A stretch of 64,000 nucleotides of DNA from a virus. The position numbers were made by a program, and so were the translations under genes. The notes under the pieces are model-generated. The model was not told the DNA's origin. It did not search any database and worked only from the letters and a program-made list of their open reading frames with translations. The DNA lies in IMG/VR virus record IMGVR_UViG_3300038722_000002, positions 19,540 through 83,539 of that record; one strand, written 5' to 3'. Position 1 is the first letter of the stretch, and every line of letters begins with the position of its first letter. Positions 12,324 through 59,302 of the stretch are shown here, piece after piece.

Positions 12324-12733
12324 TATTCATCTCCGCAGCAAGGGTTAATATCAGGAGGACAAGAAGTTGTAATCTTAATACCACCTTTAGCCTTCAATCC
12401 GTAATATCCAAAGATAGGACAAATATCACGTAATGAATCTATGTAGTCATCCCACCCTTGTTTAGCTGAACTACCATCGAAGTACGATACTTCAACTTCA
12501 TCGGTGCGTTGTTTTTGGATACCACCTGTTGCTGCGCCTACATTAGCAGCATTTACACCAGCAAGACTTCGTAATGATTTACAAAGCACTTCTGCGTAAT
12601 TAGAGTCATCGTCACCTACGTCAGCAATAATGTACTCATTAATATTTAACATCTGTGCGTCGGATAAACTATTACTTGGCGGGAGCCAGAGTTTATCGTC
12701 AGCTAATAGTTTATCTCTATCTATTGCTGCCAT
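12320..12733 (-). CDS. Head-tail adaptor / virion structural protein
   Basis: First gene after the capsid; QKQRTDEVEVSY beta-hairpin typical of adaptors. Confidence 0.65.
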   Translation of the reverse strand: MAAIDRDKLLADDKLWLPPSNSLSDAQMLNINEYIIADVGDDDSNYAEVLCKSLRSLAGVNAANVGAATGGIQKQRTDEVEVSYFDGSSAKQGWDDYIDSLRDICPIFGYYGLKAKGGIKITTSCPPDINPCCGDEY

Positions 12734-12792
12734 TTATGTTTTACCTAATGTTATCCTTTATTATTAACGTCTAAGTTATCCACCTAAAAGTT

Positions 12793-12822
12793 AATAATAA
12801 AGGAGCTGCGTTAACAGCTCCT
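12793..12822 (-). terminator. Intrinsic terminator after the major capsid gene
   Basis: AGGAGCTG/CAGCTCCT stem (12801-12822), followed on the minus strand by TTTATTATT. Confidence 0.75.
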
Positions 12823-12834
12823 AAACAACTAATA

Positions 12835-13938
12835 TTAGTCTGAGGTAGTCAGAGCAATAATTAGTTTAGGGTTGATGTTCATAAAGAGCTTATTAGACTC
12901 TTGTGCAACATGAACACCAGTACGGTTAGAGACTTTACTCTGAGTGTACATAGGCAATGCAGTGGTGTTTACATTCTCACGGTCTTGAGCAGGAGCAAAA
13001 GCACGTTTAAACAATACATCACAACCTACAGGTACAACGTAAGCATCTGCGTCTGCAATCAACTTAGTGCCTTTGATTGAGGCGGTGTAACGGATGTAAC
13101 GGAAACCGTCATGTGAATCGAAGTATTGATACTGGAAGATACCAGAACCGCTACCGAAGTTGTCACGCGGAACTTCCATAGATGCTAGATCCAATGGGCC
13201 ACGAATGTCACGTGCCAAGCCTTCTTGCTTCTCAATATCGAAACGAGAATTATAGAAGTCTTTACCACACAAGATAACAGGACGGGTCATAGAACCACCT
13301 ACGTTATCCAACTCTTCGTGTAGCTGGTCGTAGATTGCCGCGAACTCACTAATGTGATCGTTAGCTGAACCCAAAGTCATATCGATCTTAGCGGGACGAG
13401 TTGTACCGTAGATGTCATTGTAGTAGTCGTAAGTTGCGTTAGGGCCACCAGCTTCATAGTTAGTGTCACCAGTAAGCAAACTAGCGAAACCTAGCTCGTC
13501 ATCCAAGTCCCAAGCCTTACGAGATTTCTTCAACATCTGAGCAATTACATACTCTTCTGTCATCAATTCGTTTGTGCCAGCCTGACGCTTGTTTGCGTAA
13601 TCTTTAGGAGCTACATTGTAGCTAAGACCACGTGAACCTACGGTGTAGATCAACTGGCGACCTTTGTCTTTACTTAGACGATCACCATAGGCTTCAAAAG
13701 TTTTACCGTTAGGAAGCTGTAGAGTTTCCTGTAGGTCATCATACTTGATGGTGTTGGTTTCTAGGTAAACGTCATCAGTTGAGTTACCGAACAAGGCAGT
13801 CAACAGCATAGGTTTAGATTCGAAACGCTCAACTACACTTAGTTCAACATTCTCCATCTCGAAAGCATTATCAAGAGAAGCCGACAGTGCTTTGTTCATA
13901 CCAGCTAGGGATTGTTCTTCATTAATCTTAATAGTCAT
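12835..13938 (-). CDS. Major capsid protein (phage capsid E-like)
   Basis: 367 aa after the decoration gene and followed by a terminator; FAPAQD...VNT...ESNKLFMNINPKLII C-terminus of the capsid-E type. Confidence 0.88.
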   Translation of the reverse strand: MTIKINEEQSLAGMNKALSASLDNAFEMENVELSVVERFESKPMLLTALFGNSTDDVYLETNTIKYDDLQETLQLPNGKTFEAYGDRLSKDKGRQLIYTVGSRGLSYNVAPKDYANKRQAGTNELMTEEYVIAQMLKKSRKAWDLDDELGFASLLTGDTNYEAGGPNATYDYYNDIYGTTRPAKIDMTLGSANDHISEFAAIYDQLHEELDNVGGSMTRPVILCGKDFYNSRFDIEKQEGLARDIRGPLDLASMEVPRDNFGSGSGIFQYQYFDSHDGFRYIRYTASIKGTKLIADADAYVVPVGCDVLFKRAFAPAQDRENVNTTALPMYTQSKVSNRTGVHVAQESNKLFMNINPKLIIALTTSD

Positions 13939-19423: not shown

Positions 19424-19440
19424 GCTTTAAACCAACAGGA

Positions 19441-19800
19441 CAATAACCTCTCACAGTACTGTCTATCTCAAAATGTTAATAGATATAGGACACTGCTTAG
19501 GTGAGAGATAGGCCATACAATATGACAACTAAACAGTGTTACAGCAGAAGATGATGAACTCATCTCCACCACCATTCCAAGCTAAGGAGTGTGGATGATC
19601 AAGACCACGGTTACTTAGAACGCCTATAAGGAGGTTGTTACACATGATGTATAACGAATTTGTGTCAACGCTGCCACTTCGCCTGCACGTTGAAATCTCT
19701 GTCTCTCATCACTGTACACCACCTTGCTAGGAGAGGGAGCAGGGGGTGGTGTAGGGAGTAGTTTAGACAGCCTCGTCTCTGAACTGAGGGTGTTTAGTCC
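19441..19800 (+). ncRNA. Putative structured RNA between terS and terL (G-U pairs favour the + strand)
   Basis: Multiple helices, e.g. TACACCACC 19715-23 with GGTGGTGTA 19745-53, and AATAACCTC 19442-50 with GAGGTTGTT 19631-39; no ORF called. Confidence 0.45.
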
Positions 19801-19801
19801 T

Positions 19802-20732: not shown

Positions 20733-21044
20733 ATGAAAAATATGAAGAATTTACCTCCTATTCCACATGAATCTGAGGTCAAACAGGCGTTTTATGGACA
20801 CATCCAAGAGACTCTATCCAGTGGGTCGTTGAATATTCCTGATGTTGGACTGCAAGAAATCACATCATTTAGCGGAGGACACATCGGTTATAACAGCCCT
20901 ATTAGCATCCTAAAGAGTGAAAATACAGACCTTCTCCTCTATTCTGTCGGGGGTATCGGCACACTAGATGTCTATAATAACTACTCTGAAAGGCAAGAAA
21001 TGAATGTATTTGTCCGTAAAGCTAAGAAAGTGCTTGACAAATAG
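20733..21044 (+). CDS. Hypothetical protein
   Basis: 103-aa ORF between two divergent promoters; upstream TTGACA-N17-GATACT at about 20596-20624. Confidence 0.6.
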   Translation: MKNMKNLPPIPHESEVKQAFYGHIQETLSSGSLNIPDVGLQEITSFSGGHIGYNSPISILKSENTDLLLYSVGGIGTLDVYNNYSERQEMNVFVRKAKKVLDK

Positions 21045-21069: not shown

Positions 21070-21630
21070 TAGAGTAATACAGAAGGTGTGGTTGTAAGAC
21101 TACACCTGTACAAAATACATCACAATATACATTCCACCTGAGTGTGTATTCTAATGTATTTATACATAGAGGCGTTTCGGCAAGGTTTCCCTCGCGTGGT
21201 AGCAAAAGCAAAACCCGACATATTGGTATATATGGAGCTGTAATGGATGACAGCGTTGAAGTGTAGTATCAAGAGTATACAATAACAAATCCTAGCTCTG
21301 ACGTCCTCTGTCAACTGGGTAGGTGGAAATGGAACAAGGCCCGATCACTAAACATACCGAATACCCTAAGATAGTCGTAGGTATGTTTACTCACTAGGGT
21401 TAAGTAGTGGGAGAATGCGTGTACCAAGGGGCAGGTCACGATAACGCAGAACCGATGACGTTATAGAGTAAACTCTTTATTTGGAATAAGTAATAATGAA
21501 AGTGACCAGTTAGGTCATATTACTTATATTGTACTTTACTAGGTACAATGGTTATATCTTTCAAGCAGTTATATATTATTAGAATATAATTGTTAGGATA
21601 GACCACCGAATAGAGAGGGCCTAGTTGCAT
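21070..21630 (+). ncRNA. Large structured non-coding RNA 1 (~550 nt, unclassified)
   Basis: More than 10 hairpins with G-U pairs and a GNRA loop; long-range helices 21168-75/21301-09 and 21312-18/21621-27; possible pseudoknot 21132-39/21321-28; has its own promoter. Confidence 0.7.
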
Positions 21631-35218: not shown

Positions 35219-36585
35219 CTTAGCAGCCCCTACAAGCCGTTTTAAGGCACATTTCACACCACCCTATACAATCACACTAGCAAACCCCTAAACGCTCCCT
35301 ATGGACGTTCTAGGGCTGCTGTGAGGCATCCTAATATACTCTACTCTCATATATAGTACAGGAACACCTCCTCCACCTAAAGGGATAACCCCCTTATTCC
35401 CTCCCAAATATCCTCACACACAACCTCTTCCCCAATAATAGCAACACATTCCCTGTAAGGACACGCCGACACAAACCCCCTCAATATACCCCAAATATCC
35501 ACATATCTACCACTAAATTATATGTAGCACATTAATTCCCCACCAAAAATCTAATATTCCCTCCTAAAATATCCTTGACACCTACCATCACATATATGAA
35601 AATATCAAATAGCTGAGAGTAGTCTCAGGAGACAACCACACCCCCTGCCTCAAATAAAAATATCAACAACAACACAATGAGGGCATCCTCCGTTCGCCCG
35701 TTCAGGAATATCATGTTATCAATGATAGAGATAATAAGGACATGTCAGCGGCTAACCTCCCCAACATACTCCCCCAACTACCTCCTCCCCGCATATATGT
35801 GATTGTAAGATGGTAGGAGAATGGCGAAGCATTCTCATAGGTGGGACACAGGGGTAGGGTTGTACCCCTGTATACAGTATAAGGAGATAATACTCTAGGG
35901 GAGCGTATAGGCAGGCAGAATGCGGTGTGTAGACGTGTTGTGTGGTGATATTCCTAGTGCTCATTTCTAATAATAGATTCAATATTTAGCTGTTTAACAC
36001 CCTACCACACCTCCTATAGAAAGTCATTATAATTCTAAAATATCCTTAGAACCATTAGCTATATCCCCCGACAATATTCCCCCATATACCTTATATACCC
36101 CTTTTATGTTCCCCCTTATAACCTTTTGTTATACAGTTCGCATAACATAGATTATGTTAAATAGCCTATAACGATATTATTTGATGAACCATATGTTGGT
36201 ACATATAAACCATAATATGGTACATAGATATAACTAATAGTTATAACAACTTCAAGGCGCTACTACCATTGTATCATAAGAGGATATTTGAGGTAAAGTG
36301 GAGTTTTATACCTATTTGTTATATAAAATGAGGTGTTAAGTGGGAAATGGTATAAGAAAAAGGGCGATTATTGTTGACTTTGTGGGGTTTGTGGTGTTAA
36401 ACATATAGGGGGATATAATATTGTTAGGATATTATCAACATATTGGGTATAATATTATCAACATATAGTGTACATATTGGATAGAATATATATACATATC
36501 ACATAGAATATTGATAACATATACGCACTAGAATATATACCCCCAGCATATGCACCCCTGTATATTATCCCCATTACTATTATAT

Positions 36586-36714
36586 GCGTCTATATAGACG
36601 CCTACCCTCTATACACCTTTTAAGGTGTAACACAACTCACACCCCAGCACTCGCTCCCCCTAACATTGCTCCCCCTATATGGCAATACCACTATATAAGC
36701 GTCTATATAGACGC
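36586..36714. repeat. Twin perfect 16-bp palindromes GCGTCTATATAGACGC
   Basis: Copies at 36586-36601 and 36699-36714. Confidence 0.9.
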
Positions 36715-36946
36715 ATAGTAGGGCAGGCGGCAAGGTTAGCCGCTATCATACCTCTAAACGCCTATATCTACCTATCATACCTCTCTCACTAACACAACGC
36801 CCCTAGAACGTCCTCTATTGCGTTCTAAGGGCGTTGTAAGGTTGGGCTTTACGTTAGTATTAGATTGTCCCTAAACGCTCTGAATAGCTATAGGTTATAA
36901 GCGTGAGGGTTGTTAGAACTAAATGTTATATTAAATTGTAGGTGTT

Positions 36947-36970
36947 AAAAAGCCGCTTAATAGCGGCTTG
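36947..36970 (-). terminator. Intrinsic terminator at the end of the early gene cluster
   Basis: AAGCCGCT-TAAT-AGCGGCTT hairpin with a short T-run on the minus strand. Confidence 0.7.
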
Positions 36971-36983
36971 TGTGTGGGGGGTG

Positions 36984-41815: not shown

Positions 41816-43993
41816 CTAGATTTGTGAAGCAATCTTAGCTCGAATGTCTCGGAGGGTGGTTTTATTGTACAACTTACCATCCTTGAACACTGTACGAAGC
41901 AAACCTTGCCCTTCTTGCTCAGGTGTCTGCTCCTGATATAGAGTAATAACACCTTCCTCATTATGGTCTACACGCAACAAACCTTTAGCTGACTTCTTAC
42001 CTTGATCAGTCTTAGGGTCTTTACCGAAGTCAATCTGCTCACCTTTGTCGTTCCATGCACAGGTAGCCTTGATAGCTGACCCGTGAGTGTCACGGGTGAC
42101 ATATTGGTAACTGTAGGAGCCGATGCCAAGCACTACGCTAGGAGCAAACCCCTTAGCCATCAAACGGGTGTGGATCTCTTTTTGACGCTCTAGGGTGATA
42201 CTGTCACCGTAGATAGCACCGATATGGGAGTCTAGTAGTTTGTATCCCTCTGAGGTGGTTGTGCCACCGAAGATGTCCCAGAGGGATTCTACTAGACCTT
42301 TGGCTTCTGTAGAGCTAACTTCCTCGTACTCGTTATCATACATAGTATCATAGGTGCCCCCTGAAGACACGTAGTAGAATTTATCATCAGCTTTGTTCAG
42401 GTACAGCCTTTTTCTGCCTCGTATTGTTAAGGTCTGTATGTTATCCACTGTCTCATACTCCAATCCACACAGCACGCTAACAGGGTCTCCAGAATCTGGA
42501 CGAATGACCGTGGTACCGTCACGAGCCATGATATCATCTTTCAATAGTGGTAAACCTTCCTCAACAAACTTCCAGAAGTCATAGCTGTCTGATACATGAG
42601 AAACAATCCCACTTGGAACCTCTGTGAACAACTTCTCCCGTACAAAAGCAACCTCAGCATCAAACTTACTGATGCCCCGCTCCTTCTCTAGTACCGCAAT
42701 GTAGCTTGTTGCGATTGCATGTTCTGTAGCTGGTACACTGCAACCTACCAACTCAGTCTCGCAGTCAGCACCGTAGTATATCTCAGCCAAATCAATAGCT
42801 GGAACAGTATCAGTGCCAGCAAAACCTGCTGCTAGATGACCAAAACCTGACATTGCAGCTGCTTGTGGGCCAAAACAACCTCGCATGGAGAAATCGTGAC
42901 ACATAAACGGGACAGTTGCCTCGTCTAAGCCTGTCTTACGGAAGCTCTCTACAGTTTGCTTCATGTAAGCTGTAGCTGTAGTGGCTGAAGTCTGCATAGG
43001 CCATACATACGTGCTGATGATAGTCTCTAGGAAGCCTACGAGCCAAGGGTATCCGTCTACTGTGTTGGTTACAGTAAAGCACGGTACACCGTAGGGGCAA
43101 AAAGTACCCTCTTCCATAGACTTAATCTCAATTGGAAGATAACCTAAGTCATGTAGCTCCTCAAAATGTTTCACATCGAAGTCACTGCCGAAATAGTTAT
43201 CTAATCGGCGCTTCAAGCTACGGACAGCACCTTCCTTACTCAGGTTAAAGAATGTATTATTCCACTCATTTACCATGTAGTGCATCATCATATACTGCAA
43301 ACCTACGTGGACAACACCGAAGTCCTCTGGGATGTAGGATAGTCGTCCACTCCTAGCAGTGTAATTTTCATATAGGCGCACAATATTGGTGTGCAGGAAC
43401 TTCTTGTGTGCAAATTTGTAACCGTCTGCTTTAGTGATAGCTGACATACTATTCTCCTCATTGGTTTTATCGTATATTCTATTAATATGCCTCAGGAAAC
43501 CTCCCTTGGTCATATCTCTCTTCATGTGGTTACAGGCACCACAGCAAGGTAGACAATTACTATAGGTATACCCTAAGTTGTTGTCAACCCGATCTACTCC
43601 GTTCATCTCTACTTTGAAAATACCCCTAGCTTTCGGTTGGCTTCCACAGTAGTTACAAGAATCTGTTATTAGTGAGATGAACTCTTCATCAGTTAATTGG
43701 TACTCGTACCCCCTACTTTTAGCGGCTTGCTTATAGCTGTTGATCTCTTTATTGTACGCTCGGAGATTTTTGGGTATTCTAGGTACACTCCTTGTGCACT
43801 TGTTGCAACACTTCTTAGGCCGCTGTCTCCGCCTGAGTTGTGAAGTAGTAATATAGCAGGTAACCCCACAACTACACAGGCACTTCCACTTTGGTGTACC
43901 ACCAATTAACTCCCTGTCACTGATCACCTTTAGTTTACCAAACATCTTCCCTGTCAAGGCATCATCCGCTAGGTGTGTTGACCCATTCTTCAT
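41816..43993 (-). CDS. nadV: Nicotinamide phosphoribosyltransferase-like enzyme (Nampt/Namat) with an in-frame N-terminal HNH endonuclease
   Basis: Residues 183-725 carry DGYK.AH, HDFSMRG, SVPATEH, VSDSYD, VIRPDSGDP, IYGDSIT and KSAKG. Residues 1-182 carry CNYCG...GVDRVDNNLGY...NCLPCCGACNHMK. Internal SD plus ATG at 43447. Confidence 0.92.
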   Translation of the reverse strand: MKNGSTHLADDALTGKMFGKLKVISDRELIGGTPKWKCLCSCGVTCYITTSQLRRRQRPKKCCNKCTRSVPRIPKNLRAYNKEINSYKQAAKSRGYEYQLTDEEFISLITDSCNYCGSQPKARGIFKVEMNGVDRVDNNLGYTYSNCLPCCGACNHMKRDMTKGGFLRHINRIYDKTNEENSMSAITKADGYKFAHKKFLHTNIVRLYENYTARSGRLSYIPEDFGVVHVGLQYMMMHYMVNEWNNTFFNLSKEGAVRSLKRRLDNYFGSDFDVKHFEELHDLGYLPIEIKSMEEGTFCPYGVPCFTVTNTVDGYPWLVGFLETIISTYVWPMQTSATTATAYMKQTVESFRKTGLDEATVPFMCHDFSMRGCFGPQAAAMSGFGHLAAGFAGTDTVPAIDLAEIYYGADCETELVGCSVPATEHAIATSYIAVLEKERGISKFDAEVAFVREKLFTEVPSGIVSHVSDSYDFWKFVEEGLPLLKDDIMARDGTTVIRPDSGDPVSVLCGLEYETVDNIQTLTIRGRKRLYLNKADDKFYYVSSGGTYDTMYDNEYEEVSSTEAKGLVESLWDIFGGTTTSEGYKLLDSHIGAIYGDSITLERQKEIHTRLMAKGFAPSVVLGIGSYSYQYVTRDTHGSAIKATCAWNDKGEQIDFGKDPKTDQGKKSAKGLLRVDHNEEGVITLYQEQTPEQEGQGLLRTVFKDGKLYNKTTLRDIRAKIASQI

Positions 43994-45167: not shown

Positions 45168-45534
45168 CTGGGAATGTGCTCAGTACATCAGGAGATAGCT
45201 TGTTTCTTTCGGCTAATCGTAGTAATTCCCCCTTCCATTCCTCGACCTCAGTAGTGTCGTGGATAATTTGTAACTGAGCCACCAACGTCTCGTGTGTATC
45301 AGGCTGCCCATATCCAGTTACTACTTCTGGATAGGTGCTGTTCTCCATGTCAGAGGTATAATTCTTAATAAAGGGAGCGGCAGCACAACACACACTTCCT
45401 CCGTCATATTGACAATTAAAAGAGTCGTCTTTACTCCGCTCTCCCTGCTCTAGTAAGTGTGTCGCCGCAACATCAAATACTTCCTGTGCTGTCATAGTTT
45501 CTATCTTATCACCATATTCGCCTAGTTTAGCCAT
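45157..45534 (-). CDS. Hypothetical phage protein
   Basis: QEVFD....HLLEQG...CQY...LQIIHD pattern. Confidence 0.7.
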   Translation of the reverse strand: MAKLGEYGDKIETMTAQEVFDVAATHLLEQGERSKDDSFNCQYDGGSVCCAAAPFIKNYTSDMENSTYPEVVTGYGQPDTHETLVAQLQIIHDTTEVEEWKGELLRLAERNKLSPDVLSTFPDVS

Positions 45535-49989: not shown

Positions 49990-50964
49990 TCAACCTTTAT
50001 AACAACTTAATAAAAAATCATCCCAGAACTTACTATCAACCTTTTCAGGGAAGTCACTCCTATCCGCCAACACCTCAACTTCATCGATAAGTTCTTCCAG
50101 TACAGGTTGAACTTCAGTCAAGAAGTCTAAAGTACCTTGTTTCACAGCTAATAGGAAGTCTTTATTTTTGAGTGGATATGTAATTGTACCCTCCTCGTAG
50201 ATCTCCTTTAATTGATACCCCGCACGTAGGGCATGTGAAACAGCCTTCCAGTCCACTCCTTTGTTTTCCTTTGCTGCTTTGGCGCGTTCGCCGTAGGAGT
50301 TCCACTTCTCTTTGATTGATGTAAGGAACAAAGGTAACGGCATGGTTTTTTGATACTTGGAACCTAGAACAACATAGAACTCCTGTTCCGTACCGTTCTT
50401 CATCTTAGTTGTTTCATAATAACAGTGGTCATTCTCTGGCAACTTGCCCCACACATATTCAGATATTTTATCACACTTATCCCAACTATCATATTTAAGG
50501 TAGTAGTCATTACGTTGGAGTTGATTAAATACTTCCTCTAATGCTGCCATACGACTACCTTTGATACCATACTTACTAGCCTGCTTACGAGCATAACCTA
50601 GAAAAGCCTTCATATTCTTGGTGGAGAACCTCCATCGGTTCATCTGGATAAACTCCCACTCTGGACTTGCGCTTATTTGCCCTTGCATAGGACTGGCATG
50701 GAGCATGTCTAAAGCGATCATCTCCCCTTGAGTACACAATCGGATGAACTCAGGAAGAGAGTACCAATCACTATCCACATCTTCACTGGTATTCTTACTT
50801 TGGTCATTCCCCGTTGACTCACTGATTTGTTTAGGGGATATACCTAACAGCAGCTCATCTGTGCTGGGCATAAACACACCCTTATAGTCGATGTCTGATT
50901 CTGGTGTGTTCAGACCATAAAGGTGTGAGCCGTGTACGCACTGAAACAACTTCTTATATTTCAT
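49990..50964 (-). CDS. Nucleotidyltransferase (Pol-beta superfamily)
   Basis: HGSHLYGLNTPESDIDYKGVF signature; DWKAVSHALR. Confidence 0.88.
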   Translation of the reverse strand: MKYKKLFQCVHGSHLYGLNTPESDIDYKGVFMPSTDELLLGISPKQISESTGNDQSKNTSEDVDSDWYSLPEFIRLCTQGEMIALDMLHASPMQGQISASPEWEFIQMNRWRFSTKNMKAFLGYARKQASKYGIKGSRMAALEEVFNQLQRNDYYLKYDSWDKCDKISEYVWGKLPENDHCYYETTKMKNGTEQEFYVVLGSKYQKTMPLPLFLTSIKEKWNSYGERAKAAKENKGVDWKAVSHALRAGYQLKEIYEEGTITYPLKNKDFLLAVKQGTLDFLTEVQPVLEELIDEVEVLADRSDFPEKVDSKFWDDFLLSCYKG

Positions 50965-51116
50965 TATTACTCCTTAGTATAATTGAAGGGACTACAATAT
51001 GTGTATATCCCCTCTCAGGCTCCGTGTACGCCACGACACGGCATTTTAAATAGAAACCTATACAAACACCCTAATGGGGAGTATAAGCCCTTGTAGAAAC
51101 TTCATCTTGTTGTCTT

Positions 51117-51488
51117 TCATAATGTAGGTTCCTCGAACAGCTGGTTGAAATACTCTGCCGTGAAACACTCTTTAACTTCCTCCTTATATTCAGGAGTCTG
51201 ATAATAGTCACTATAGAACTCATTAGTCTCTCGGTGGCGATAGTCTGCTTGCTTCCGCTTATTATTGTGTTTATAACTCTTCTTATCTCGCTCCCACCAA
51301 GGGATAAACAAGGTGAACCACTCTTGTACCAAGCAGGAGTTATCCGTCTCGTAGTCGTACTTTAGAAACTCTATGAGAACTCGTTTCTTACCTCTCTTAA
51401 TAAGAGTAGCTCGACTACCTCTCATTCCTTTCCCGTCCTGAAATATAACTATATTTTTCACAAAAACTTCTCCCGTTGCCCCAAACAC
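51117..51488 (-). CDS. Hypothetical protein
   Basis: ORF downstream of the promoter TTGACA-N17-TAAGGT (51564-51536). Confidence 0.65.
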   Translation of the reverse strand: MFGATGEVFVKNIVIFQDGKGMRGSRATLIKRGKKRVLIEFLKYDYETDNSCLVQEWFTLFIPWWERDKKSYKHNNKRKQADYRHRETNEFYSDYYQTPEYKEEVKECFTAEYFNQLFEEPTL

Positions 51489-51602
51489 ATGAAAGCCTTA
51501 TGATGTACCTCGGCTCTACCTAATTTAATGTGTGTACCTTACAGCTATGTTCTTGGCGTGTCAACCTATTTGACCAACTATTCCATTAACATACGAAAAG
51601 AC

Positions 51603-51632
51603 TTGACTTTTTATCAAAATTACTGGCAGAAT
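51603..51632 (+). promoter_or_regulatory. Promoter (TTGACT-N18-CAGAAT class) upstream of structured RNA 2
   Basis: CTTGACTTTTTATCAAAATTACTGGCAGAATAG. Confidence 0.6.
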
Positions 51633-51637
51633 AGAAG

Positions 51638-52195
51638 GTAGGATAGTGTGTTAAATATTACATCATCCTGAGAATTAGAAATAAATGAGAATATTCTGGT
51701 GTTTGTGGTGGTTGGAAACAATCATTAACGGGACGAGAGGAGTTCCAAGGTTGTCCTTCTGTATAGCTACAGTATAGGCATGTGGTAACAGTAATGTCCA
51801 CACTCTTCTCTCATACGTCTGACGTAGCGACACCTGCTTAGTCCGAACCTATCAAGACTGGGCGTAAAACGAGTTAAGCGTGACGTGTTCAATTAGGTAT
51901 GATTAGTTTATAGCTATTGCTTATTATACCACTTGAACTGTATGCAGGTCTTACACTGCTTTAAAAGTGTGAGCTATCACAGGGTCATTCCCTATATCAA
52001 TGCTCGATAATTAGAATATGTGGTTAGATATGTTTGATTAATATCTTAGATTAGCAATATCGGCTAATCTACCTCTTGTCAATAGGTTATATTATAACAC
52101 TCCAAAGTAGATTGGTTAATTAGAATAGTAATTCTATCACCCAAGGCTACTTTGTCTTGTCGTGCCTGTAAGAAAGGTAATGAATATAATAGTAA
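51638..52195 (+). ncRNA. Large structured non-coding RNA 2 (~550 nt, unclassified)
   Basis: Many hairpins with G-U pairs and GAAA/GTAA loops; helix 51735-43/51802-10; possible pseudoknot 51846-52/52082-88; no ORF called. Confidence 0.68.
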
Positions 52196-52261
52196 ATAAA
52201 ATGTTGACATGGAGATGTCAGACCATTATAGTGACATCAACTTAAACAAGAGGAGAGGAAT

Positions 52262-52960
52262 ATGAGCAAGCGTAATAGTACAAGTAACATCAACCCTCAA
52301 GTAGAAATCAGTGAGGGGTGTATAGGTGGTGAGCAATATTCTCACCCTAGTTATGGGTTGATTAGGGTAAATCGGTGTCAAGGGTCACAGCAACACTTTG
52401 GGAGCGATGTAGATGCGAGTACCAGCATGAGACTAACCATCTCAGAGGCAAATGTAACCCATAACCTAGGACGTAGTTGGTATCACGACAACAAGATGGT
52501 TACTGAGGTTAATATGACGGCTGTACAATATGCTGAAATGATTTCATCCCCTAATACACAAGGGGTTCCTTGTACAATCACATACCGTAATGATATAGGA
52601 CATATTACATACCGTCCTCCTACAGATCAGATAGACATGATTGAAGCGGAGGTTAAGCAATGCTTCGATAAAGCCAAACAGAAGAATGCTGCTGTACAGG
52701 ATGAGGTGAAGGAATTATTCCAGAAGAAAAGCTTGAATAAGAATGACAAGGAGGTTATCTTGAACCTGATACGTGGACTGTCGAATGATATCACAAACAG
52801 CCTCCCTTTCTATTTAGATTCAGCCGATGAGATACTAGAGCGCAAGGTTATGGAGGCTAAGACGGAAGCGGAAGCTTATATGGAACACTTGCGTGTGCAG
52901 GTAGGGGAGTATGTTCTGAATAATCCAGATGTCTTGAAGCTTACACAGGAGAAGGTATAA
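52262..52960 (+). CDS. Hypothetical phage protein
   Basis: HPSYG...FGSDV...QYAEMISSPN.QGVPCTI; promoter TTGACA-N17-TATAGT at 52204; strong SD. Confidence 0.8.
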   Translation: MSKRNSTSNINPQVEISEGCIGGEQYSHPSYGLIRVNRCQGSQQHFGSDVDASTSMRLTISEANVTHNLGRSWYHDNKMVTEVNMTAVQYAEMISSPNTQGVPCTITYRNDIGHITYRPPTDQIDMIEAEVKQCFDKAKQKNAAVQDEVKELFQKKSLNKNDKEVILNLIRGLSNDITNSLPFYLDSADEILERKVMEAKTEAEAYMEHLRVQVGEYVLNNPDVLKLTQEKV

Positions 52961-53175
52961 TGTGGGACTGGGTGACGGGATTATGGATGGGAGTGCTTGT
53001 CACAGTACTGATAGGACTACATTTAAATGTAACACCTCACGAGGCTCCCATGCAAGAGCACTGTGCAATCTACTCGTCAGACCTACAAAGTTATAATGTT
53101 TATAGCTTCGAGTGTACTAATGGGGCAGAGTTCAGTAGGAAACTAATTAAGGAAAAGGGTGAGAATGTTAAGTAA
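52960..53175 (+). CDS. Small membrane-anchored protein
   Basis: N-terminal hydrophobic helix and two Cys residues. Confidence 0.6.
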   Translation: MWDWVTGLWMGVLVTVLIGLHLNVTPHEAPMQEHCAIYSSDLQSYNVYSFECTNGAEFSRKLIKEKGENVK

Positions 53176-54424
53176 ACAACAACAACACTCTGTAGATTTA
53201 CAGAAACAAGGCAAGAGTATTTCATTAATCGGTGGAGCAGGTTGTGGTAAGACACACACAATCAAACAGGTCACAACACGTAACACTGTTGTTGTGGCTC
53301 CTAGTGCAGCCGCAGCTCTGAATGTAGATGGTGTGACGGTACACTCTGCCTTTAGTTTGTCACATGGTATTCAGACAGAGAAAGACTTGAAACGTATCAC
53401 ATCAGAGATGAAGATGTTGTTTGGTGTTAATAGCCCCATTGATCGTATTGTATTCGATGAAGCATTCACCTTACCAGCTAATTTATTAGACGATGTGAGC
53501 ACGAAGCTACAGTTATTAAGGGGTAACAACCTCCCCTTCGGTGGAATCCCTGTGACGCTATCAGGTGACCCTCTACAGTGTGCTCCTTTTTGGTCATACG
53601 AAGAAGGGAAGATATTAAATAAGAAATACTTAACACCCTACATCTTCAACTCTAAGGTGTGGAAGAAACTGAAACCCGAAGTTGTTGTATTAACGGAGAT
53701 ATTCCGTAATAAGAACTATGAACAACAACAATGGTTGAACTCTATTCGGAGTAAAGACGGAGACTGGAATGAGGCTATTGATCACATCAATGAAGTGGCC
53801 TCCCATAGGGACTACAACCCTAACTCAGACTTACATCTGTGCTCACATAGAGAAAGCGCACGTAAGATGAACGCTTATTACTACGATAAGATTAAAAGTC
53901 AAGAGTATACTTATACGGCAACTATTGAAGGTAAGTATAAAGAGAGTGAATATCCAGTAGAGAAACTATTGAAGTTGAAAGTGGGTTGTCGTATAATCTT
54001 CACGGTCAATAACTATGACGAGGGTTACACCAACGGACTACAAGGGACGGTAGTTAAGTTATCTAACTCTTCTGTTGTAGTAGACGCTGATAACGGTGAA
54101 ACCTACTATGTAGTAGAGGAAGAATGGAAGAATGAGAAGCTGAGTTCTATCGGGAAGGGAGACTTCTCTAAGATCCAAGTGGGAACATTCTCTCAGTACC
54201 CTCTCCGTCTAGGTTGGGCTACCACGATACATTCGTCACAGGGCTTGACATTGGATAATCTTACTGTAGACTTCGGCATAGATGCTTTTGCTGACGGTAT
54301 GGTTTACGTGGCATTGAGTCGGTTAACATCACTGGACGGGTTGACATTAGTACGTCCCGTCCAGCATGGTGATGTGAAAGTGAGTCGTAAGGCTTTGCAA
54401 TTTATCAATAAACATTGTAAATAG
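53159..54424 (+). CDS. SF1B DNA helicase (Pif1/RecD-like)
   Basis: GGAGCGKT, FDEA, PFGG, GDPLQ, WATTIHSSQGLT and YVALSR motifs. Confidence 0.93.
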   Translation: MRMLSKQQQHSVDLQKQGKSISLIGGAGCGKTHTIKQVTTRNTVVVAPSAAAALNVDGVTVHSAFSLSHGIQTEKDLKRITSEMKMLFGVNSPIDRIVFDEAFTLPANLLDDVSTKLQLLRGNNLPFGGIPVTLSGDPLQCAPFWSYEEGKILNKKYLTPYIFNSKVWKKLKPEVVVLTEIFRNKNYEQQQWLNSIRSKDGDWNEAIDHINEVASHRDYNPNSDLHLCSHRESARKMNAYYYDKIKSQEYTYTATIEGKYKESEYPVEKLLKLKVGCRIIFTVNNYDEGYTNGLQGTVVKLSNSSVVVDADNGETYYVVEEEWKNEKLSSIGKGDFSKIQVGTFSQYPLRLGWATTIHSSQGLTLDNLTVDFGIDAFADGMVYVALSRLTSLDGLTLVRPVQHGDVKVSRKALQFINKHCK

Positions 54425-57027: not shown

Positions 57028-58716
57028 ATGGCTAAACGAAAAGAATGGATTTACGATCTCGAAACATTTCCTAACTGCTTCACATTCTGTGCTGTGTTCA
57101 GTGATGGTGGTCACATTCAGTTGTTTGAGATCAGTGATCGTAAAAATGACATAGAGGACTTGTTATCCTTTCTGCGTAAAGTGGTTGAACATGGGCACAA
57201 AATGGTGGGGTATAATAACAACGGGTTTGACTATCCTGTATTACATTACATTATAAATAAGGCTAAGCTTGCTAAGCAACGAGACTTACCTGTCAAGGTT
57301 ACAGCCAAACAGATTTACAACAAGGCTATGGAGTTCATCAACTCCCAGTCTTTTGGTGGAGGGTTCGGTAGTGCGGTTAAACCAAGTGAAGTGATTGTTC
57401 CACAGATTGATCTATTCAAGATTCATCACTTCGACAATGCAGCGCGTATGACATCTCTGAAGATGTTGGAATTTAACATGCGCTCTGACAACATCGAAGA
57501 CTTACCTTTCGATGTGGGTGTTAAGTTGAACAGTGAAGAGATAGATGTATTAATTGAATATAACAAACATGATGTTTTACAGACATATAAGTTTTATAAG
57601 CACAGTATAGGCGTGATAGAGTTCCGAGAGGATCTAACTGAGAAGTATGGCTTTGACTGCACCAACTTTAACGACACCAAGATAGGGGCTGAGTATTTCA
57701 TCAACCAACTAGAAAAAGCTGTACCTAATTGTTGTTATAGTTTCGTAAACGGTAGACGTAAAACGAACCAGACCAAGCGTGATGTGATCCACGTAAAGGA
57801 TGTGATATTTCCATATATTAAGTTTAAGCGACCAGAGTTTAATGCCATACTTGAGTGGTTTAAGAACCAAACGTTAACTGAGACAAAAGGAGTGTTCAGT
57901 GACGTATTAGAGAGCGACTTAGGTGATGTAGCACAGTACGCGAAGATGAGGAAGAAACGACAGAAGTTTAAATCCAAACCTACCGAGAGGATGATTGAAG
58001 ATTTACGTAAAGATAAACCTGCTGTGTGGGTTGAAGAAATAGAATTGAAAAGTGGAGGGGTAAGTTATTGGTGGAACTGGAACATTGTAGACGCAATGAA
58101 TGTGGTGATAGATGATTTGGAAATCGTCTTCGGTACAGGAGGTGTACATGCCGCACGACAAGGTAGATTCAAAGAAGAAGGTTCTACTGTAATTGAGTCT
58201 GTGGATGTTGCCAGTATGTATCCTAACATTGCCATTGCGAATAGAATCTACCCTGAACATCTAGGTGAAACCTTCTGTGACATCTACCAGAGCCTCTATC
58301 AGGAACGTGTAGAGATTAAATCACAAATGAAACAGTTAGATAAGAGCACTGATGAATATAAGAATTTAGATAATATCCAAGGTGCAATCAAACTTGCTCT
58401 GAATGGTACGTATGGCAACTCGAATAATAAATATAGCCCATTCTACGATCCACAGTATACAATGGCTGTGACAATCAACGGACAGTTGTCATTGTGTATG
58501 TTGGCAGATATGCTATATGAGATCGAGGGTATGAAACTCGTTATGATGAACACAGATGGTTTGGAGTTCACTGTCGATGAAAAACATGTGCCTCGTTGTA
58601 AAGAAATATACAAAGAGTGGGAAGAGATTACAGGGTTGGTGTTGGAGCGTGACACATACAATAAACTGTACATCCGAGATGTGAATAATTACATAGGAGT
58701 GTTTAATGAAGGTTAA
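57028..58716 (+). CDS. DNA polymerase (family B-like), N-terminal part: 3'-5' exonuclease plus palm
   Basis: ExoI YDLET, ExoII YNNNGFD, ExoIII YNKHD; DVASMYP, KLALNGTYG and NTDG motifs. Confidence 0.92.
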   Translation: MAKRKEWIYDLETFPNCFTFCAVFSDGGHIQLFEISDRKNDIEDLLSFLRKVVEHGHKMVGYNNNGFDYPVLHYIINKAKLAKQRDLPVKVTAKQIYNKAMEFINSQSFGGGFGSAVKPSEVIVPQIDLFKIHHFDNAARMTSLKMLEFNMRSDNIEDLPFDVGVKLNSEEIDVLIEYNKHDVLQTYKFYKHSIGVIEFREDLTEKYGFDCTNFNDTKIGAEYFINQLEKAVPNCCYSFVNGRRKTNQTKRDVIHVKDVIFPYIKFKRPEFNAILEWFKNQTLTETKGVFSDVLESDLGDVAQYAKMRKKRQKFKSKPTERMIEDLRKDKPAVWVEEIELKSGGVSYWWNWNIVDAMNVVIDDLEIVFGTGGVHAARQGRFKEEGSTVIESVDVASMYPNIAIANRIYPEHLGETFCDIYQSLYQERVEIKSQMKQLDKSTDEYKNLDNIQGAIKLALNGTYGNSNNKYSPFYDPQYTMAVTINGQLSLCMLADMLYEIEGMKLVMMNTDGLEFTVDEKHVPRCKEIYKEWEEITGLVLERDTYNKLYIRDVNNYIGVFNEG

Positions 58717-59302
58717 GCGTAAAGGGGCGTATGAATATGACAGTCTAGGTTGGCATCAAAACCATTCCTCACTGGTGATAGCAATGGCTGCTGAACATGA
58801 AATACTAGAACGTGGATCATGTGAAGACTTTATCAGAGCACATGATAACAAATGGGATTTCATGTTAAGAACTAAAGTTCCTCGTTCGTCACGCTTGGTA
58901 ATGGTCATGGAAGATGGGTCTGAGGTGTTGCAACAAAACATATGTAGGTATTATCCCTCTAAAGAGGGTGGTAGGTTGATCAAGATAATGCCTCCCCTAG
59001 AGAAAAAGAACACTAAATATTGGATGAATGATGAATTAGACGCTCTTGTAACCAATACAGCTACAGAACACAATAAAGCAATCAAGAAGGGTTTTGAGGA
59101 GAAGAAGATTGAGTTCCATGAAGCAATATGCAACCCACTGTTTCTACCTCTCATGGAGCGTAGGTTGTCAATAGATTCCGAATGGAATGTTAAAACTTGC
59201 AATGATATAAATGAGTTTGAATGGGACATCGACTATGACTATTACATTCAGGGAGCTAGGAAATTAATCAATGAATTAGATGATAAACACTTGACCACAT
59301 AA
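58706..59302 (+). CDS. DNA polymerase C-terminal (thumb) part, separate ORF
   Basis: Begins KVKRKGAY (the KxKG thumb motif) and ends DIDYDYYI; has its own AGGAG SD at 58695. Confidence 0.85.
   Translation: MKVKRKGAYEYDSLGWHQNHSSLVIAMAAEHEILERGSCEDFIRAHDNKWDFMLRTKVPRSSRLVMVMEDGSEVLQQNICRYYPSKEGGRLIKIMPPLEKKNTKYWMNDELDALVTNTATEHNKAIKKGFEEKKIEFHEAICNPLFLPLMERRLSIDSEWNVKTCNDINEFEWDIDYDYYIQGARKLINELDDKHLTT

What the first reader, a model, noticed from the sequence alone, without database searches (positions are those of the whole stretch)
51603..52195. Second ~550-nt structured ncRNA, possibly a paralogue or partner of RNA 1
Seen: the interval has no called ORF and is full of helices. Examples are TGGTGGTTG-GAAA-CAATCATTA (51706-27), GAGAGGAGT 51735-43 with ACTCTTCTC 51802-10 enclosing sub-hairpins (one GTAA loop), GCTTAGTC/GACTGGGC (51836-63), GGTATGAT/ATTATACC, CTTACACT/AGTGTGAG, TAGATTAGC/GCTAATCTA and CAAAGTAG/CTACTTTG. 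The loop AACCTAT 51846-52 matches ATAGGTT 52082-88 (pseudoknot candidate). G-U pairs indicate the + strand. It shares with RNA 1 its size, promoter class and location at a divergence point. It also shares two motifs in the same order and at similar spacing: TCTGACGT (51818 vs 21297) and GCAGGTC (51944 vs 21431), 126 vs 134 nt apart. Inference: two diverged members of one RNA class, forming an undescribed phage ncRNA system.
Basis: partly seen in the sequence, partly recalled or inferred. Interest (0 to 1): 0.85.

Follow-up and report, generated by a model that had tools for sequence, protein, structure and literature searches.

The report
Conserved structured non-coding leader in marine phage
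A gene-free stretch of about 650-770 bases at the head of a marine phage's DNA-replication genes is almost unchanged between strains and probably makes a folded RNA, but it is not a relative of the phage's other large non-coding region.

Summary
The sequence observations hold. 51489-52261 has no ORF of 60 aa or more in any frame. The + strand folds better than shuffles (z -3.49, 0 of 100).

The strongest new evidence comes from metagenome contigs of three studies. They keep 51586-52255 almost unchanged (4/670, 1/432 and 4/516 differences). The replication genes to the right differ by about 4.4% (76/1733, 39/894; Fisher p about 1e-7 and 3e-6). Left of 51559 the sequence is replaced altogether.

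In the 5' 373 nt the folding signal is strand-specific (+ z -2.47, - z +0.07). A promoter-like motif, TTGAC-N19-CAGAATA, occurs three times against 0.01 expected. It heads this region, RNA 1 and the packaging operon.

The paralogue claim fails every test I ran: shared k-mers, Smith-Waterman, structure-profile alignment and reciprocal covariance models.

There is no Rfam family, no terminator, no RNA run and no diverged homologue, so covariation could not be tested.

Best reading (0.4): a conserved + strand structured RNA made from the phage promoter, running into the replication operon as a leader. Rivals are a transcription-primed origin and a DNA-level regulatory spacer kept alike by recombination.

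The parts
51559..52255 (+). Conserved non-coding block. It is nearly identical in contigs from three studies. Its left edge is a breakpoint beyond which other strains carry unlike sequence.
   Evidence: X2 record 2 covers 51586-52255 with 4 differences in 670 nt. X5 record 18 covers 51616-52047 with 1 in 432. X6 record 24 covers 51558-52073 with 4 plus 1 gap in 516. Loose ends lie 'before' 51558/51559 in X2, X5 and X6. One search gives the Fisher tests against the flanks.
51559..51564 (-). TTGACA read on the - strand. This is a -35-like hexamer facing the leftward 123-aa gene, and it coincides with the left edge of the conserved block.
   Evidence: Read. That it acts as a promoter is inference.
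51603..51633 (+). Promoter-like motif P1, TTGACT-N19-CAGAATA (TG before the -10). It belongs to the phage-private class. The predicted start lies near 51639-51641.
   Evidence: 3 matches against 0.01 expected; no more copies in the 83.5 kb; 9 of 12 sigma-70 matches. In X5 this part (51559-51645) differs at 3 and 5 of 87 positions, against 1 of 432 downstream.
51639..51670 (+). 5'-terminal hairpin of 11 bp with 3 G-U pairs, at the predicted transcript start.
   Evidence: mean pair probability 0.94.
51706..51727 (+). Hairpin TGGTGGTTG-GAAA-CAATCATTA, with a GNRA-type loop and 3 G-U pairs.
   Evidence: probability 0.96. The G-U pairs become A-C mismatches on the - strand.
51735..51810 (+). Domain closed by GAGAGGAGT/ACTCTTCTC, enclosing two small hairpins. 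In the full leader, 51803-51811 can pair instead with the Shine-Dalgarno stretch 52249-52257.
   Evidence: fold of the 5' domain alone; full-leader fold, probability 0.86. The alternative pairing is not above chance.
51836..51863 (+). Hairpin GCTTAGTC/GACTGGGC. Its loop carries AACCTAT.
   Evidence: probability 0.98. for the motif.
51866..52010 (+). Three-way-junction domain made of helices 51870-74/52002-06, 51878-51945, 51947-51975 and 51981-51993.
   Evidence: MFE equals centroid, -41.7 kcal/mol against -29.2 +/- 3.7, z -3.36, 0 of 200 shuffles. Model R1 built from it finds only itself.
52011..52200 (.). AT-rich segment (28-32% GC) with perfect palindromic hairpins (52047-52071; 52103-52154 with 52121-52136) and two copies of TAATTAGAATA. 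It folds as well on either strand.
   Evidence: + z -1.63, - z -2.66. Most of the strain differences that one search lists inside the block lie here (52045, 52061, 52078).
52204..52232 (+). Second promoter-like site P2, TTGACA-17-TATAGT (11 of 12), directly before the first replication-operon gene.
52262..52960 (+). First gene of the rightward operon (phrog_6452, function unknown). It is followed by a Dda-like helicase, a primase/helicase, a split DNA polymerase and an exonuclease.
   Evidence: No terminator-like site lies between 51640 and 52262 on the + strand.

Best explanation
The block from about 51640 to 52260 is a functional + strand RNA. RNA polymerase starts at the phage-private promoter P1 (51603-51633) and transcribes about 620 nt without a gene. 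No terminator intervenes, so it runs on into the replication operon.

The 5' part, about 370 nt, folds into a strand-specific set of helices: a 5'-terminal hairpin, a GNRA hairpin, and a multi-helix domain with a three-way junction. It is held nearly invariant between strains.

I read it as a cis-linked structured leader. It gives P1-driven transcripts of the replication genes properties (stability, translation, timing or processing) different from those of the short mRNA made from the adjacent sigma-70-like promoter P2. A 5' fragment may also be released.

Shown: absence of genes, the non-random promoter motif, strand-specific folding above shuffles, and strong conservation limited to the non-coding block.

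Inferred: that P1 fires, that the RNA exists, and what the RNA does.
For: 1. No coding capacity.
2. The P1 motif occurs 3 times against 0.01 expected. The other two copies head the packaging operon and RNA 1.
3. The + strand fold has z -3.49, 0 of 100 shuffles. In the 5' domain 51638-52010 the + strand gives z -2.47 (3 of 100) and the - strand z +0.07 (49 of 100). High-probability helices there carry 1-3 G-U pairs each. The junction domain has z -3.36, 0 of 200.
4. Conservation:
- X2: 4/670 in the block against 76/1733 in the divergent right-flank records, p 1.8e-7 (9e-7 if the window-like record 5 is included).
- X5: 1/432 against 39/894, p 3.2e-6; and against 8/174 in the promoter part 51559-51645, p 2.8e-4. 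The invariant part therefore begins near the predicted start.
- Divergence resumes at the fourth codon of the next gene (an insertion after 52271).
5. No terminator-like site on the + strand between 51640 and 52262.
6. Precedent: lytic phages ICP1 and K make abundant RNAs of about 635-1150 nt from ORF-less gaps, with unknown function (PMC7567579 and PMC9241854, passages read).
Against: - No transcript evidence exists. All six listed runs are DNA.
- No covariation test was possible. The only relatives seen are nearly identical, and no diverged homologue was found.
- The folding signal is moderate. No 200-nt window is in the genome's top 1%, and other regions fold more strongly.
- X3 gives only 2/280 against 19/640 (p 0.05). 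That disappears if its window-like records are included.
- Contigs drop rare variants, and 57 listed differences were not shown.
- Near-identity next to a breakpoint could also reflect a recently exchanged module rather than selection.
- The 3' 190 nt folds as well or better on the - strand.
- The predicted masking of the ribosome-binding site is not above chance: 9 of 62 shuffled leaders mask it as well.
- One of the five placed strain differences (52078 G>A) would break a predicted long-range G-C pair.
Confidence: 0.4

Rival explanations
1. Transcription-primed replication origin. P1 fires into the AT-rich, palindrome-bearing segment 52011-52200 next to the helicase, primase and polymerase genes. 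The transcript forms a persistent hybrid that primes or opens the origin. The structured 5' part would play the role that the folded upstream part of ColE1 RNA II plays. The resemblance to T4/T7 origins and to ColE1 is recalled from general knowledge and comes from no call.
For: - The region sits at the head of the replication module.
- A promoter is followed by one of the lowest-GC 300-nt windows of the record (0.327 at 51912-52012).
- It has perfect palindromes, repeated TAATTAGAATA and three AACCTAT sites within 530 bp.
- The 3' part folds equally on both strands.
- RNA 1 has the same layout.
Against: - No iteron array was found. The repeats are two-copy and short, and ATTAGAAT and TAATTAGAATA are not enriched window-wide.
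- Cumulative GC skew simply follows gene orientation, so it says nothing.
- The most invariant part is the 5' G-U-rich domain, not the AT-rich part, where most of the differences listed inside the block fall.
- A 1-kb ORF-free stretch at 35983-36983 is more AT-rich and more strongly folded. It is at least as good an origin candidate.
Confidence: 0.2
2. A DNA-level divergent control region. It would hold promoters and operator palindromes for the leftward and rightward operons, with spacer between them. Its near-identity between strains would come from recent recombinational exchange of the module rather than from RNA-level selection. The predicted folds would be incidental.
For: - There is a sharp breakpoint at 51558/51559, at a -35-like hexamer, with unlike sequence to the left in X2, X5 and X6. 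Recombination therefore acts here.
- Nine promoter-like sites on both strands against 4.9 +/- 2.1 expected.
- The palindromes in the 3' part could be operators.
- The folding z-scores are only moderate.
Against: - The invariant stretch begins near the predicted start and ends at the next gene's start codon in independent comparisons. That is not expected of arbitrary recombination tracts.
- The block stays alike in runs of three studies (marine, mollusc, coral reef). In X5 the promoter part and the right-flank genes differ by 3-7%. X6 has no flank cover.
- 600 nt is far more than promoters and operators need.
- The folding signal in the 5' domain is strand-specific.
Confidence: 0.2
3. One reading: RNA 2 is a diverged paralogue of RNA 1, and the two form one RNA family or system.
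For: - The two share a promoter class.
- They are similar in size and in having an AT-rich 3' half.
- Collinear shared 7-mers number 30 against a mean of 10.7, reached by 3.3% of shuffles.
- ATTAGAAT: 4 of the 6 window copies lie in the two regions.
Against: - Shared 7-mers and 8-mers are at chance level, and Smith-Waterman is at chance level.
- The MAFFT alignment has no blocks.
- The structure-profile alignment is not above natural-sequence controls.
- Reciprocal covariance models find nothing on the other locus's + strand.
- The helix architectures differ.
Confidence: 0.05
4. A small non-autonomous mobile element (MITE-like), or a stand-alone trans-acting large RNA gene of the GOLLD/ROOL/ICP1-lncRNA type, carried as a cassette.
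For: - Imperfect terminal inverted repeats TGTCAACCTATT (51559-70) and AAAATGTTGACA (52198-209), 10 of 12 complementary. The left one lies exactly at the breakpoint.
- The block is nearly identical in different left contexts.
- Large phage RNAs of unknown role exist.
Against: - The inverted repeats are just the two outward-facing TTGACA hexamers.
- There is only one copy in the 83.5-kb record, and no copy in IMG/VR, the phage records or 185,579 species genomes by exact core patterns.
- No target-site duplication was seen.
- There is no terminator to bound a separate RNA gene.
- No Rfam match and no tRNA genes nearby.
Confidence: 0.07

Closest known systems
Abundant long non-coding transcripts from ORF-less gaps of lytic phages (ICP1, about 800 nt between gp139 and gp140; phage K lnc001 and lnc002)
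   Same: - A gene-free gap of about 0.6-1 kb in a large lytic phage.
- Its own promoter.
- No known family, and function unknown.
(PMC7567579 and PMC9241854, passages read.)
   Different: - Those RNAs were seen by RNA-seq, whereas no transcript is known here.
- There is no sequence similarity to any record of the phage collection.
- Here the RNA would run into an operon rather than stand alone.
GOLLD and ROOL large ornate RNAs (Rfam families; the names come)
   Same: Comparable size (hundreds of nt), carried by a phage, multi-helix architecture.
   Different: - No match to any of 4227 Rfam models at gathering score, and no match to these families at E<=10.
- No tRNA genes in the window, whereas those RNAs are often near tRNAs (passage).
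- No covariation support.
Transcription-activated origins (T4 oriF/oriG, the T7 primary origin) and the ColE1 RNA II pre-primer. Recalled from general knowledge, from no call.
   Same: - A promoter followed by an AT-rich, easily opened segment beside replication genes.
- A folded RNA of about 550-600 nt upstream of the putative opening site, as in ColE1 RNA II.
   Different: - No origin activity or RNA-DNA hybrid is known.
- No sequence or model match is possible with these tools.
- The strongest conservation lies in the 5' folded part, not in the AT-rich part.
RNA 1 of the same phage (21070-21630)
   Same: - The same promoter motif.
- Similar length.
- A GC-richer 5' half and an AT-rich 3' half.
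- No terminator, and it runs into the next gene.
   Different: - No detectable sequence or structural homology.
- RNA 1 folds more strongly (z -5.85).
- RNA 1 precedes an HNH endonuclease gene.

Membership tests
Any Rfam 15 family (including GOLLD, ROOL, group I/II introns, HEARO, riboswitches, ribozymes) | Covariance-model score at or above the family's gathering score | tested here: not met
   0 matches in the whole window; the only matches at E<=10 in 51300-52500 score 11-14 bits on the - strand (SAM, Afu_198, EF0820_EF0821), far below their gathering scores.
GOLLD/ROOL-type phage RNAs | Frequent placement next to tRNA genes | tested here: not met
   ARAGORN finds no tRNA or tmRNA in the 64-kb window.
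One RNA family with RNA 1 (paralogue claim) | Sequence similarity above shuffled controls | tested here: not met
   Smith-Waterman 23 against 22.2 +/- 2.9. Shared 7-mers 38 against 34.1 +/- 7.9. Shared 8-mers 13 against 9.3 +/- 4.2; no aligned blocks.
One RNA family with RNA 1 (paralogue claim) | Structural similarity: a model of one finds the other | tested here: not met
   R1 (51866-52010) gives only a 20-nt - strand fragment in RNA 1 at E 2.1. R2 (21162-21315) gives only a - strand hairpin at 52100-52157 at E 4.9, among 56 noise hits; the profile alignment is not above 55 natural segments. Caveat: these are single-sequence models of one domain each, so power is low.
One RNA family with RNA 1 (paralogue claim) | Shared promoter class | tested here: met
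   TTGAC-N19-CAGAATA at 21034, 51603 and, on the - strand, 20695-20665. Three matches against 0.01 expected.
Structured non-coding RNA (general criteria) | Compensatory base changes in helices across homologues | not testable with these tools
   The only relatives seen are nearly identical contigs shown as summaries.
Structured non-coding RNA (general criteria) | A transcript of defined ends | not testable with these tools
   One search lists DNA runs only. No terminator-like site bounds the region.
Transcription-activated phage origin | A promoter followed by an AT-rich unwinding segment, beside replication genes | tested here: met
   This is only the sequence layout.
Transcription-activated phage origin | Initiation of DNA synthesis at the site | not testable with these tools
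   Needs infected cells. GC skew is uninformative because it follows gene orientation.
Iteron-type origin | An array of three or more direct repeats for an initiator | tested here: not met
   only two-copy direct repeats of 11-18 nt.

The most novel reading that the evidence does not exclude
RNA 2 is the founding member of an undescribed class of large (about 400-600 nt) phage RNAs. Such RNAs would be produced from a phage-private promoter at the head of DNA-metabolism operons and held almost invariant while the surrounding proteins drift. RNA 2 would act either as an RNA-II-like folded pre-primer that sets where and when the phage genome starts replicating, or as an ornate RNA with its own biochemical role. 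RNA 1 would be a non-homologous functional counterpart at the second divergence point.
Probability: 0.15. Interest if true: 0.75.

Novelty: new variant of a known kind. Interest (0 to 1): 0.45.

Why it matters
Large lytic phages repeatedly show gene-free gaps of 0.6-1 kb that make abundant RNAs of unknown function. Almost none has a family, a structure or a role.

This block is unusual in two ways. It is kept nearly letter-perfect across samples from three studies while the adjacent replication genes diverge by about 4%. It also sits exactly between a phage-private promoter and the replication operon.

If it is an RNA, it offers a tractable case for asking what such phage RNAs do, for example replication priming or operon control. 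If it is an origin, it marks the start point of replication in an uncultured marine phage lineage. Either way the finding is a lead and not a demonstration.

Tried and rejected
1. Homologue hunting led nowhere.
- blastn (distant mode) of 51400-52400 against 50,697 phage records gave no match.
- Relatives of the downstream gene (best non-self 53% identity) were fetched as 11 viral loci and 45 metagenome loci.
- 0 of 11 viral loci, and 0 of the 10 metagenome loci that I ORF-mapped (10 of 45), have an ORF-free gap longer than 250 nt directly upstream.
- blastn and nhmmer of both RNAs against all 57 loci gave only matches of 28 nt or less (best E 0.046) and no nhmmer hit.
- L013, a 62%-identical nucleotidyltransferase, is not syntenic.
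- Exact core patterns found nothing in IMG/VR or in the species genomes.
- The promoter motif found 4 IMG/VR loci. All look like chance matches: three share one coding-like sequence and one is GC-rich. It has 0 matches in three isolate genomes.
- DNA and model R1 searches of 4 viral records and 3 isolates gave nothing meaningful. L017's record was not held.

2. Expression. No RNA holder is listed, so nothing can be said about it.

3. Parts of the 4-kb stretch without contig cover in X3, X5 and X6 are not used as evidence.

4. Masking of the ribosome-binding site by CUCUUCUCU 51803-11 is predicted, but it is not above shuffled leaders: native unpaired probability 0.22 against 0.37 +/- 0.14, and 9 of 62 shuffles are as low. 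Rejected as evidence.

5. GC skew as an origin marker was rejected because it follows gene orientation.

6. GCAGAATAG alone is not enriched. ATTAGAAT and TAATTAGAATA are not enriched window-wide.

7. Vibrio phage RYC has an unannotated gap of the same length (773 nt) at a divergence point. That gap holds an unannotated small ORF, has no fold signal (z -0.43) and shows no similarity. Rejected as a homologue.

8. My regression-based genome scan gives odd values for compositionally skewed windows. I use it only for rough ranks.

9. The placement of strain differences relative to structure (4 of 5 unpaired) rests on too few sites to count.

10. The pseudoknot was not tested.

11. No supplementary files of papers were consulted. 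The supplements of PMC7567579 and PMC9241854 may hold the coordinates or sequences of the phage lncRNAs.

12. PMC12286853 and PMC5737381 were seen only in search listings.
Full report
**Setting.** The window is bases 19540-83539 of an 83,539-base IMG/VR virus record, estimated 54% complete. The runs that hold it are marine, mollusc and coral-reef metagenomes.

Gene content marks a large lytic tailed phage: large terminase, ribonucleotide reductase, NAMPT, Dda-like helicase, primase/helicase, DNA polymerase and exonuclease. The nearest isolates by large terminase are Pseudoalteromonas phages H101 and HM1, at 51% and 48% identity. No tRNA gene and no Rfam family at gathering score is present in the window.

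**The observation.** The finding lies between a leftward 123-aa ORF (51117-51488) and the rightward gene 52262-52960.

- The 773 nt between them have no ORF of 60 aa or more in any frame. This is one of two such stretches longer than 600 nt in the record.
- The small ORFs inside (52 aa or less) have no PHROG match (0 of 7 at E<=0.1).
Most are predicted with pair probability 0.8-0.99.

**Is the folding more than chance?** Moderately.

| Segment | + strand | - strand |
|---|---|---|
| 51603-52195 | -160.5 kcal/mol against -139.1 +/- 6.1; z -3.49; 0 of 100 shuffles | z -2.23; 1 of 100 |
| 5' domain 51638-52010 | z -2.47; 3 of 100 | z +0.07; 49 of 100 |
| AT-rich 3' part 52011-52200 | z -1.63 | z -2.66 |
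| Junction 51866-52010 (145 nt) | z -3.36; 0 of 200; MFE equals centroid | not run |

- Splitting the region shows where the signal comes from. In the 5' domain the signal is on the + strand only. In the AT-rich 3' part it is on both strands.
- Helices of the 5' domain carry 1-3 G-U pairs each. Those of the 3' part are perfect palindromes.
- In a genome-wide scan of 200-nt windows, the + strand windows over the region rank from the 2.5th to the 53rd percentile. None is in the top 1%, and RNA 1 and two other regions score higher.

The region is still not an extreme outlier.

**Promoters and ends.**

- TTGAC-N19-CAGAATA occurs three times in the window against 0.01 expected, and nowhere else in the 83.5 kb.
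- One copy is at 51603 (+) before this region and one at 21034 (+) before RNA 1.
- The third, at 20695-20665 (-), precedes a small Zn-ribbon-like ORF, a 195-aa gene and the large terminase.
- A near-consensus sigma-70-like site (TTGACA-17-TATAGT, 11 of 12) lies at 52204-52232, directly before gene 52262.
- No terminator-like site lies on the + strand between 51640 and 52262. A P1 transcript would therefore read into the replication operon.

**Conservation between strains (new evidence).** Contigs of four DNA runs from three studies were laid on 50000-54000 at 80% or more likeness.

- Divergent strains match the non-coding block almost perfectly. X2 record 2 (51586-52255) has 4 differences in 670 nt. 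X5 record 18 (51616-52047) has 1 in 432. X6 record 24 (51558-52073) has 4 plus one gap in 516.
- The rightward genes differ much more in the same runs. X2 has 21/480, 8/140, 34/523 (with 12 gap letters), 4/114 and 9/476. X5 has 14/193, 6/155, 13/309, 5/156 and 1/81.
- Fisher tests give p 1.8e-7 for X2 (9e-7 if its window-like record 5 is included) and p 3.2e-6 for X5. X3 gives p 0.05, and no signal at all if its window-like records are included.
- In X5 the promoter part 51559-51645 exists in two versions, with 3 and 5 differences in 87 nt (p 2.8e-4 against the block). The invariant part therefore starts near the predicted transcript start.
- The next listed difference on the right is an insertion after 52271, in the fourth codon of the gene.
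- Left of 51558/51559, contigs of X2, X5 and X6 continue with sequence unlike the window. The block therefore sits in at least two left contexts.
- Most of the differences listed inside the block (52045, 52061, 52078; 52210 lies just beyond) fall in or next to the AT-rich 3' part. 52058 is inferred from a loose end.

Caveats: contigs suppress rare variants, 57 differences were not shown, and depths are low.

**Relation to RNA 1.** None was detectable beyond the promoter and general layout.

- MAFFT gives no aligned blocks.
- Shared 7-mers (38 against 34.1 +/- 7.9), shared 8-mers (13 against 9.3 +/- 4.2) and the Smith-Waterman score (23 against 22.2 +/- 2.9) are at chance level. Only the count of collinear 7-mer pairs is raised (30 against 10.7; 3.3% of shuffles reach it), and overlapping AT-rich words inflate it.
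- A local alignment of base-pairing profiles plus sequence scores RNA 1 against RNA 2 no higher than RNA 2 against 55 random natural segments of the genome (52, 37 and 4 of 55 at least as high at three settings).
- A covariance model of the RNA 2 junction domain finds only itself in the window (183.8 bits; next best 15.5 bits elsewhere).
- A model of an RNA 1 domain finds nothing on the + strand of RNA 2.

These single-sequence models have low power, but every test points the same way.

**Homologues elsewhere.** None was found (details under Tried and rejected). Relatives of the downstream gene at 27-43% identity have no long upstream gap. Earlier notes of this scan hold no look-alike on other DNA.

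**Interpretation.**

- The combination of no coding capacity, a non-random phage promoter and strand-specific folding is best explained by a functional + strand RNA. So is invariance that starts near the predicted start and ends at the next start codon. Without a terminator, that RNA is physically the leader of P1-driven replication-operon transcripts (confidence 0.4).
- What it does is inference. Control of stability, translation or timing relative to the short P2 mRNA is the simplest idea. The specific anti-Shine-Dalgarno pairing I noticed is not statistically supported.
- A transcription-primed origin is a serious rival (0.2), given the AT-rich palindromic 3' part and the neighbouring helicase, primase and polymerase genes. 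Against it, the strongest conservation lies in the 5' domain, and a better AT-rich candidate exists at 35983-36983.
- A DNA-level control region kept alike by recent recombination (0.2) is supported by the breakpoint. It is weakened by the coincidence of the block's edges with functional landmarks, and by the block staying alike in runs from three studies.
- The paralogue model (0.05) and a mobile-element or stand-alone RNA gene (0.07) are unlikely.

**Comparison with what is known.** The closest described things are the abundant long RNAs from ORF-less gaps of ICP1 and phage K. They are of the same kind but share no sequence, and their function is unknown. GOLLD, ROOL and all other Rfam families fail the membership test. 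The resemblance to T4/T7 origins and to ColE1 RNA II is recalled from general knowledge and is a matter of layout only.

I file this as a new variant of a known kind: an orphan large phage non-coding region or leader. It carries good conservation evidence, moderate structural evidence and no expression evidence.

Noticed in passing
window 35983-36983: A 1-kb stretch with no ORF of 60 aa or more. It holds the lowest-GC 300-nt windows of the record (0.29-0.32) and the strongest local folding outliers (z -5.5 at 36562-36761 on the + strand; both strands score). It lies where the two gene blocks converge. It could be an origin or another RNA region.
   Followed up: no
window 19424-19801: A 378-nt ORF-free gap inside the packaging operon, between the 195-aa gene and the large terminase gene.
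   Followed up: no
window 41816-43993 (-): A 725-aa protein. Its residues 181-724 match nicotinamide phosphoribosyltransferase, and its first 200 or so residues match HNH/endonuclease VII families. This may be an endonuclease fused to, or inserted at the head of, an auxiliary metabolic gene.
   Followed up: no
window 57028-59302 (+): The DNA polymerase is split into two overlapping ORFs (562 and 198 aa). They match consecutive parts of one PHROG polymerase profile.
   Followed up: no
window 21148, 21578, 52010, 52119: Four of the six ATTAGAAT copies in the window lie in the two large non-coding regions. The word resembles the -10 element of the private promoter (CAGAATA). It is not enriched window-wide.
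   Followed up: partly
window 52163-52186: This stretch of about 20 nt (it reads like a ribosome-binding site followed by ATG) matches unrelated phages at 95-96%: Pseudoalteromonas phage J2-1 at 45233-45255 and an IMG/VR record (L003 at 2906-2925). It looks like a generic gene-junction sequence. A 21-27-aa ORF starts here.
   Followed up: no
window 51528-51558 and the loose ends: The alternative left flank seen in X2, X5 and X6 contains, in inverted orientation, the 11-mer found at 51528-51538 of the window. This hints at a small rearrangement at the breakpoint and not only a gene replacement. The word is not otherwise repeated in the window.
   Followed up: partly
L060 1255-2027 (Vibrio phage RYC, AP014858.1): An unannotated 773-nt gap at a divergence point upstream of the operon that holds the homologue of gene 52262. 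It contains an unannotated small ORF with a strong ribosome-binding site (about 1821-2030). It has no fold signal and no similarity to RNA 2.
   Followed up: partly
window 12612-13011: A strong local fold on both strands (z -3.1 to -4.7) at the 12733-12835 gene junction. It may be a large terminator or palindrome between structural genes.
   Followed up: no
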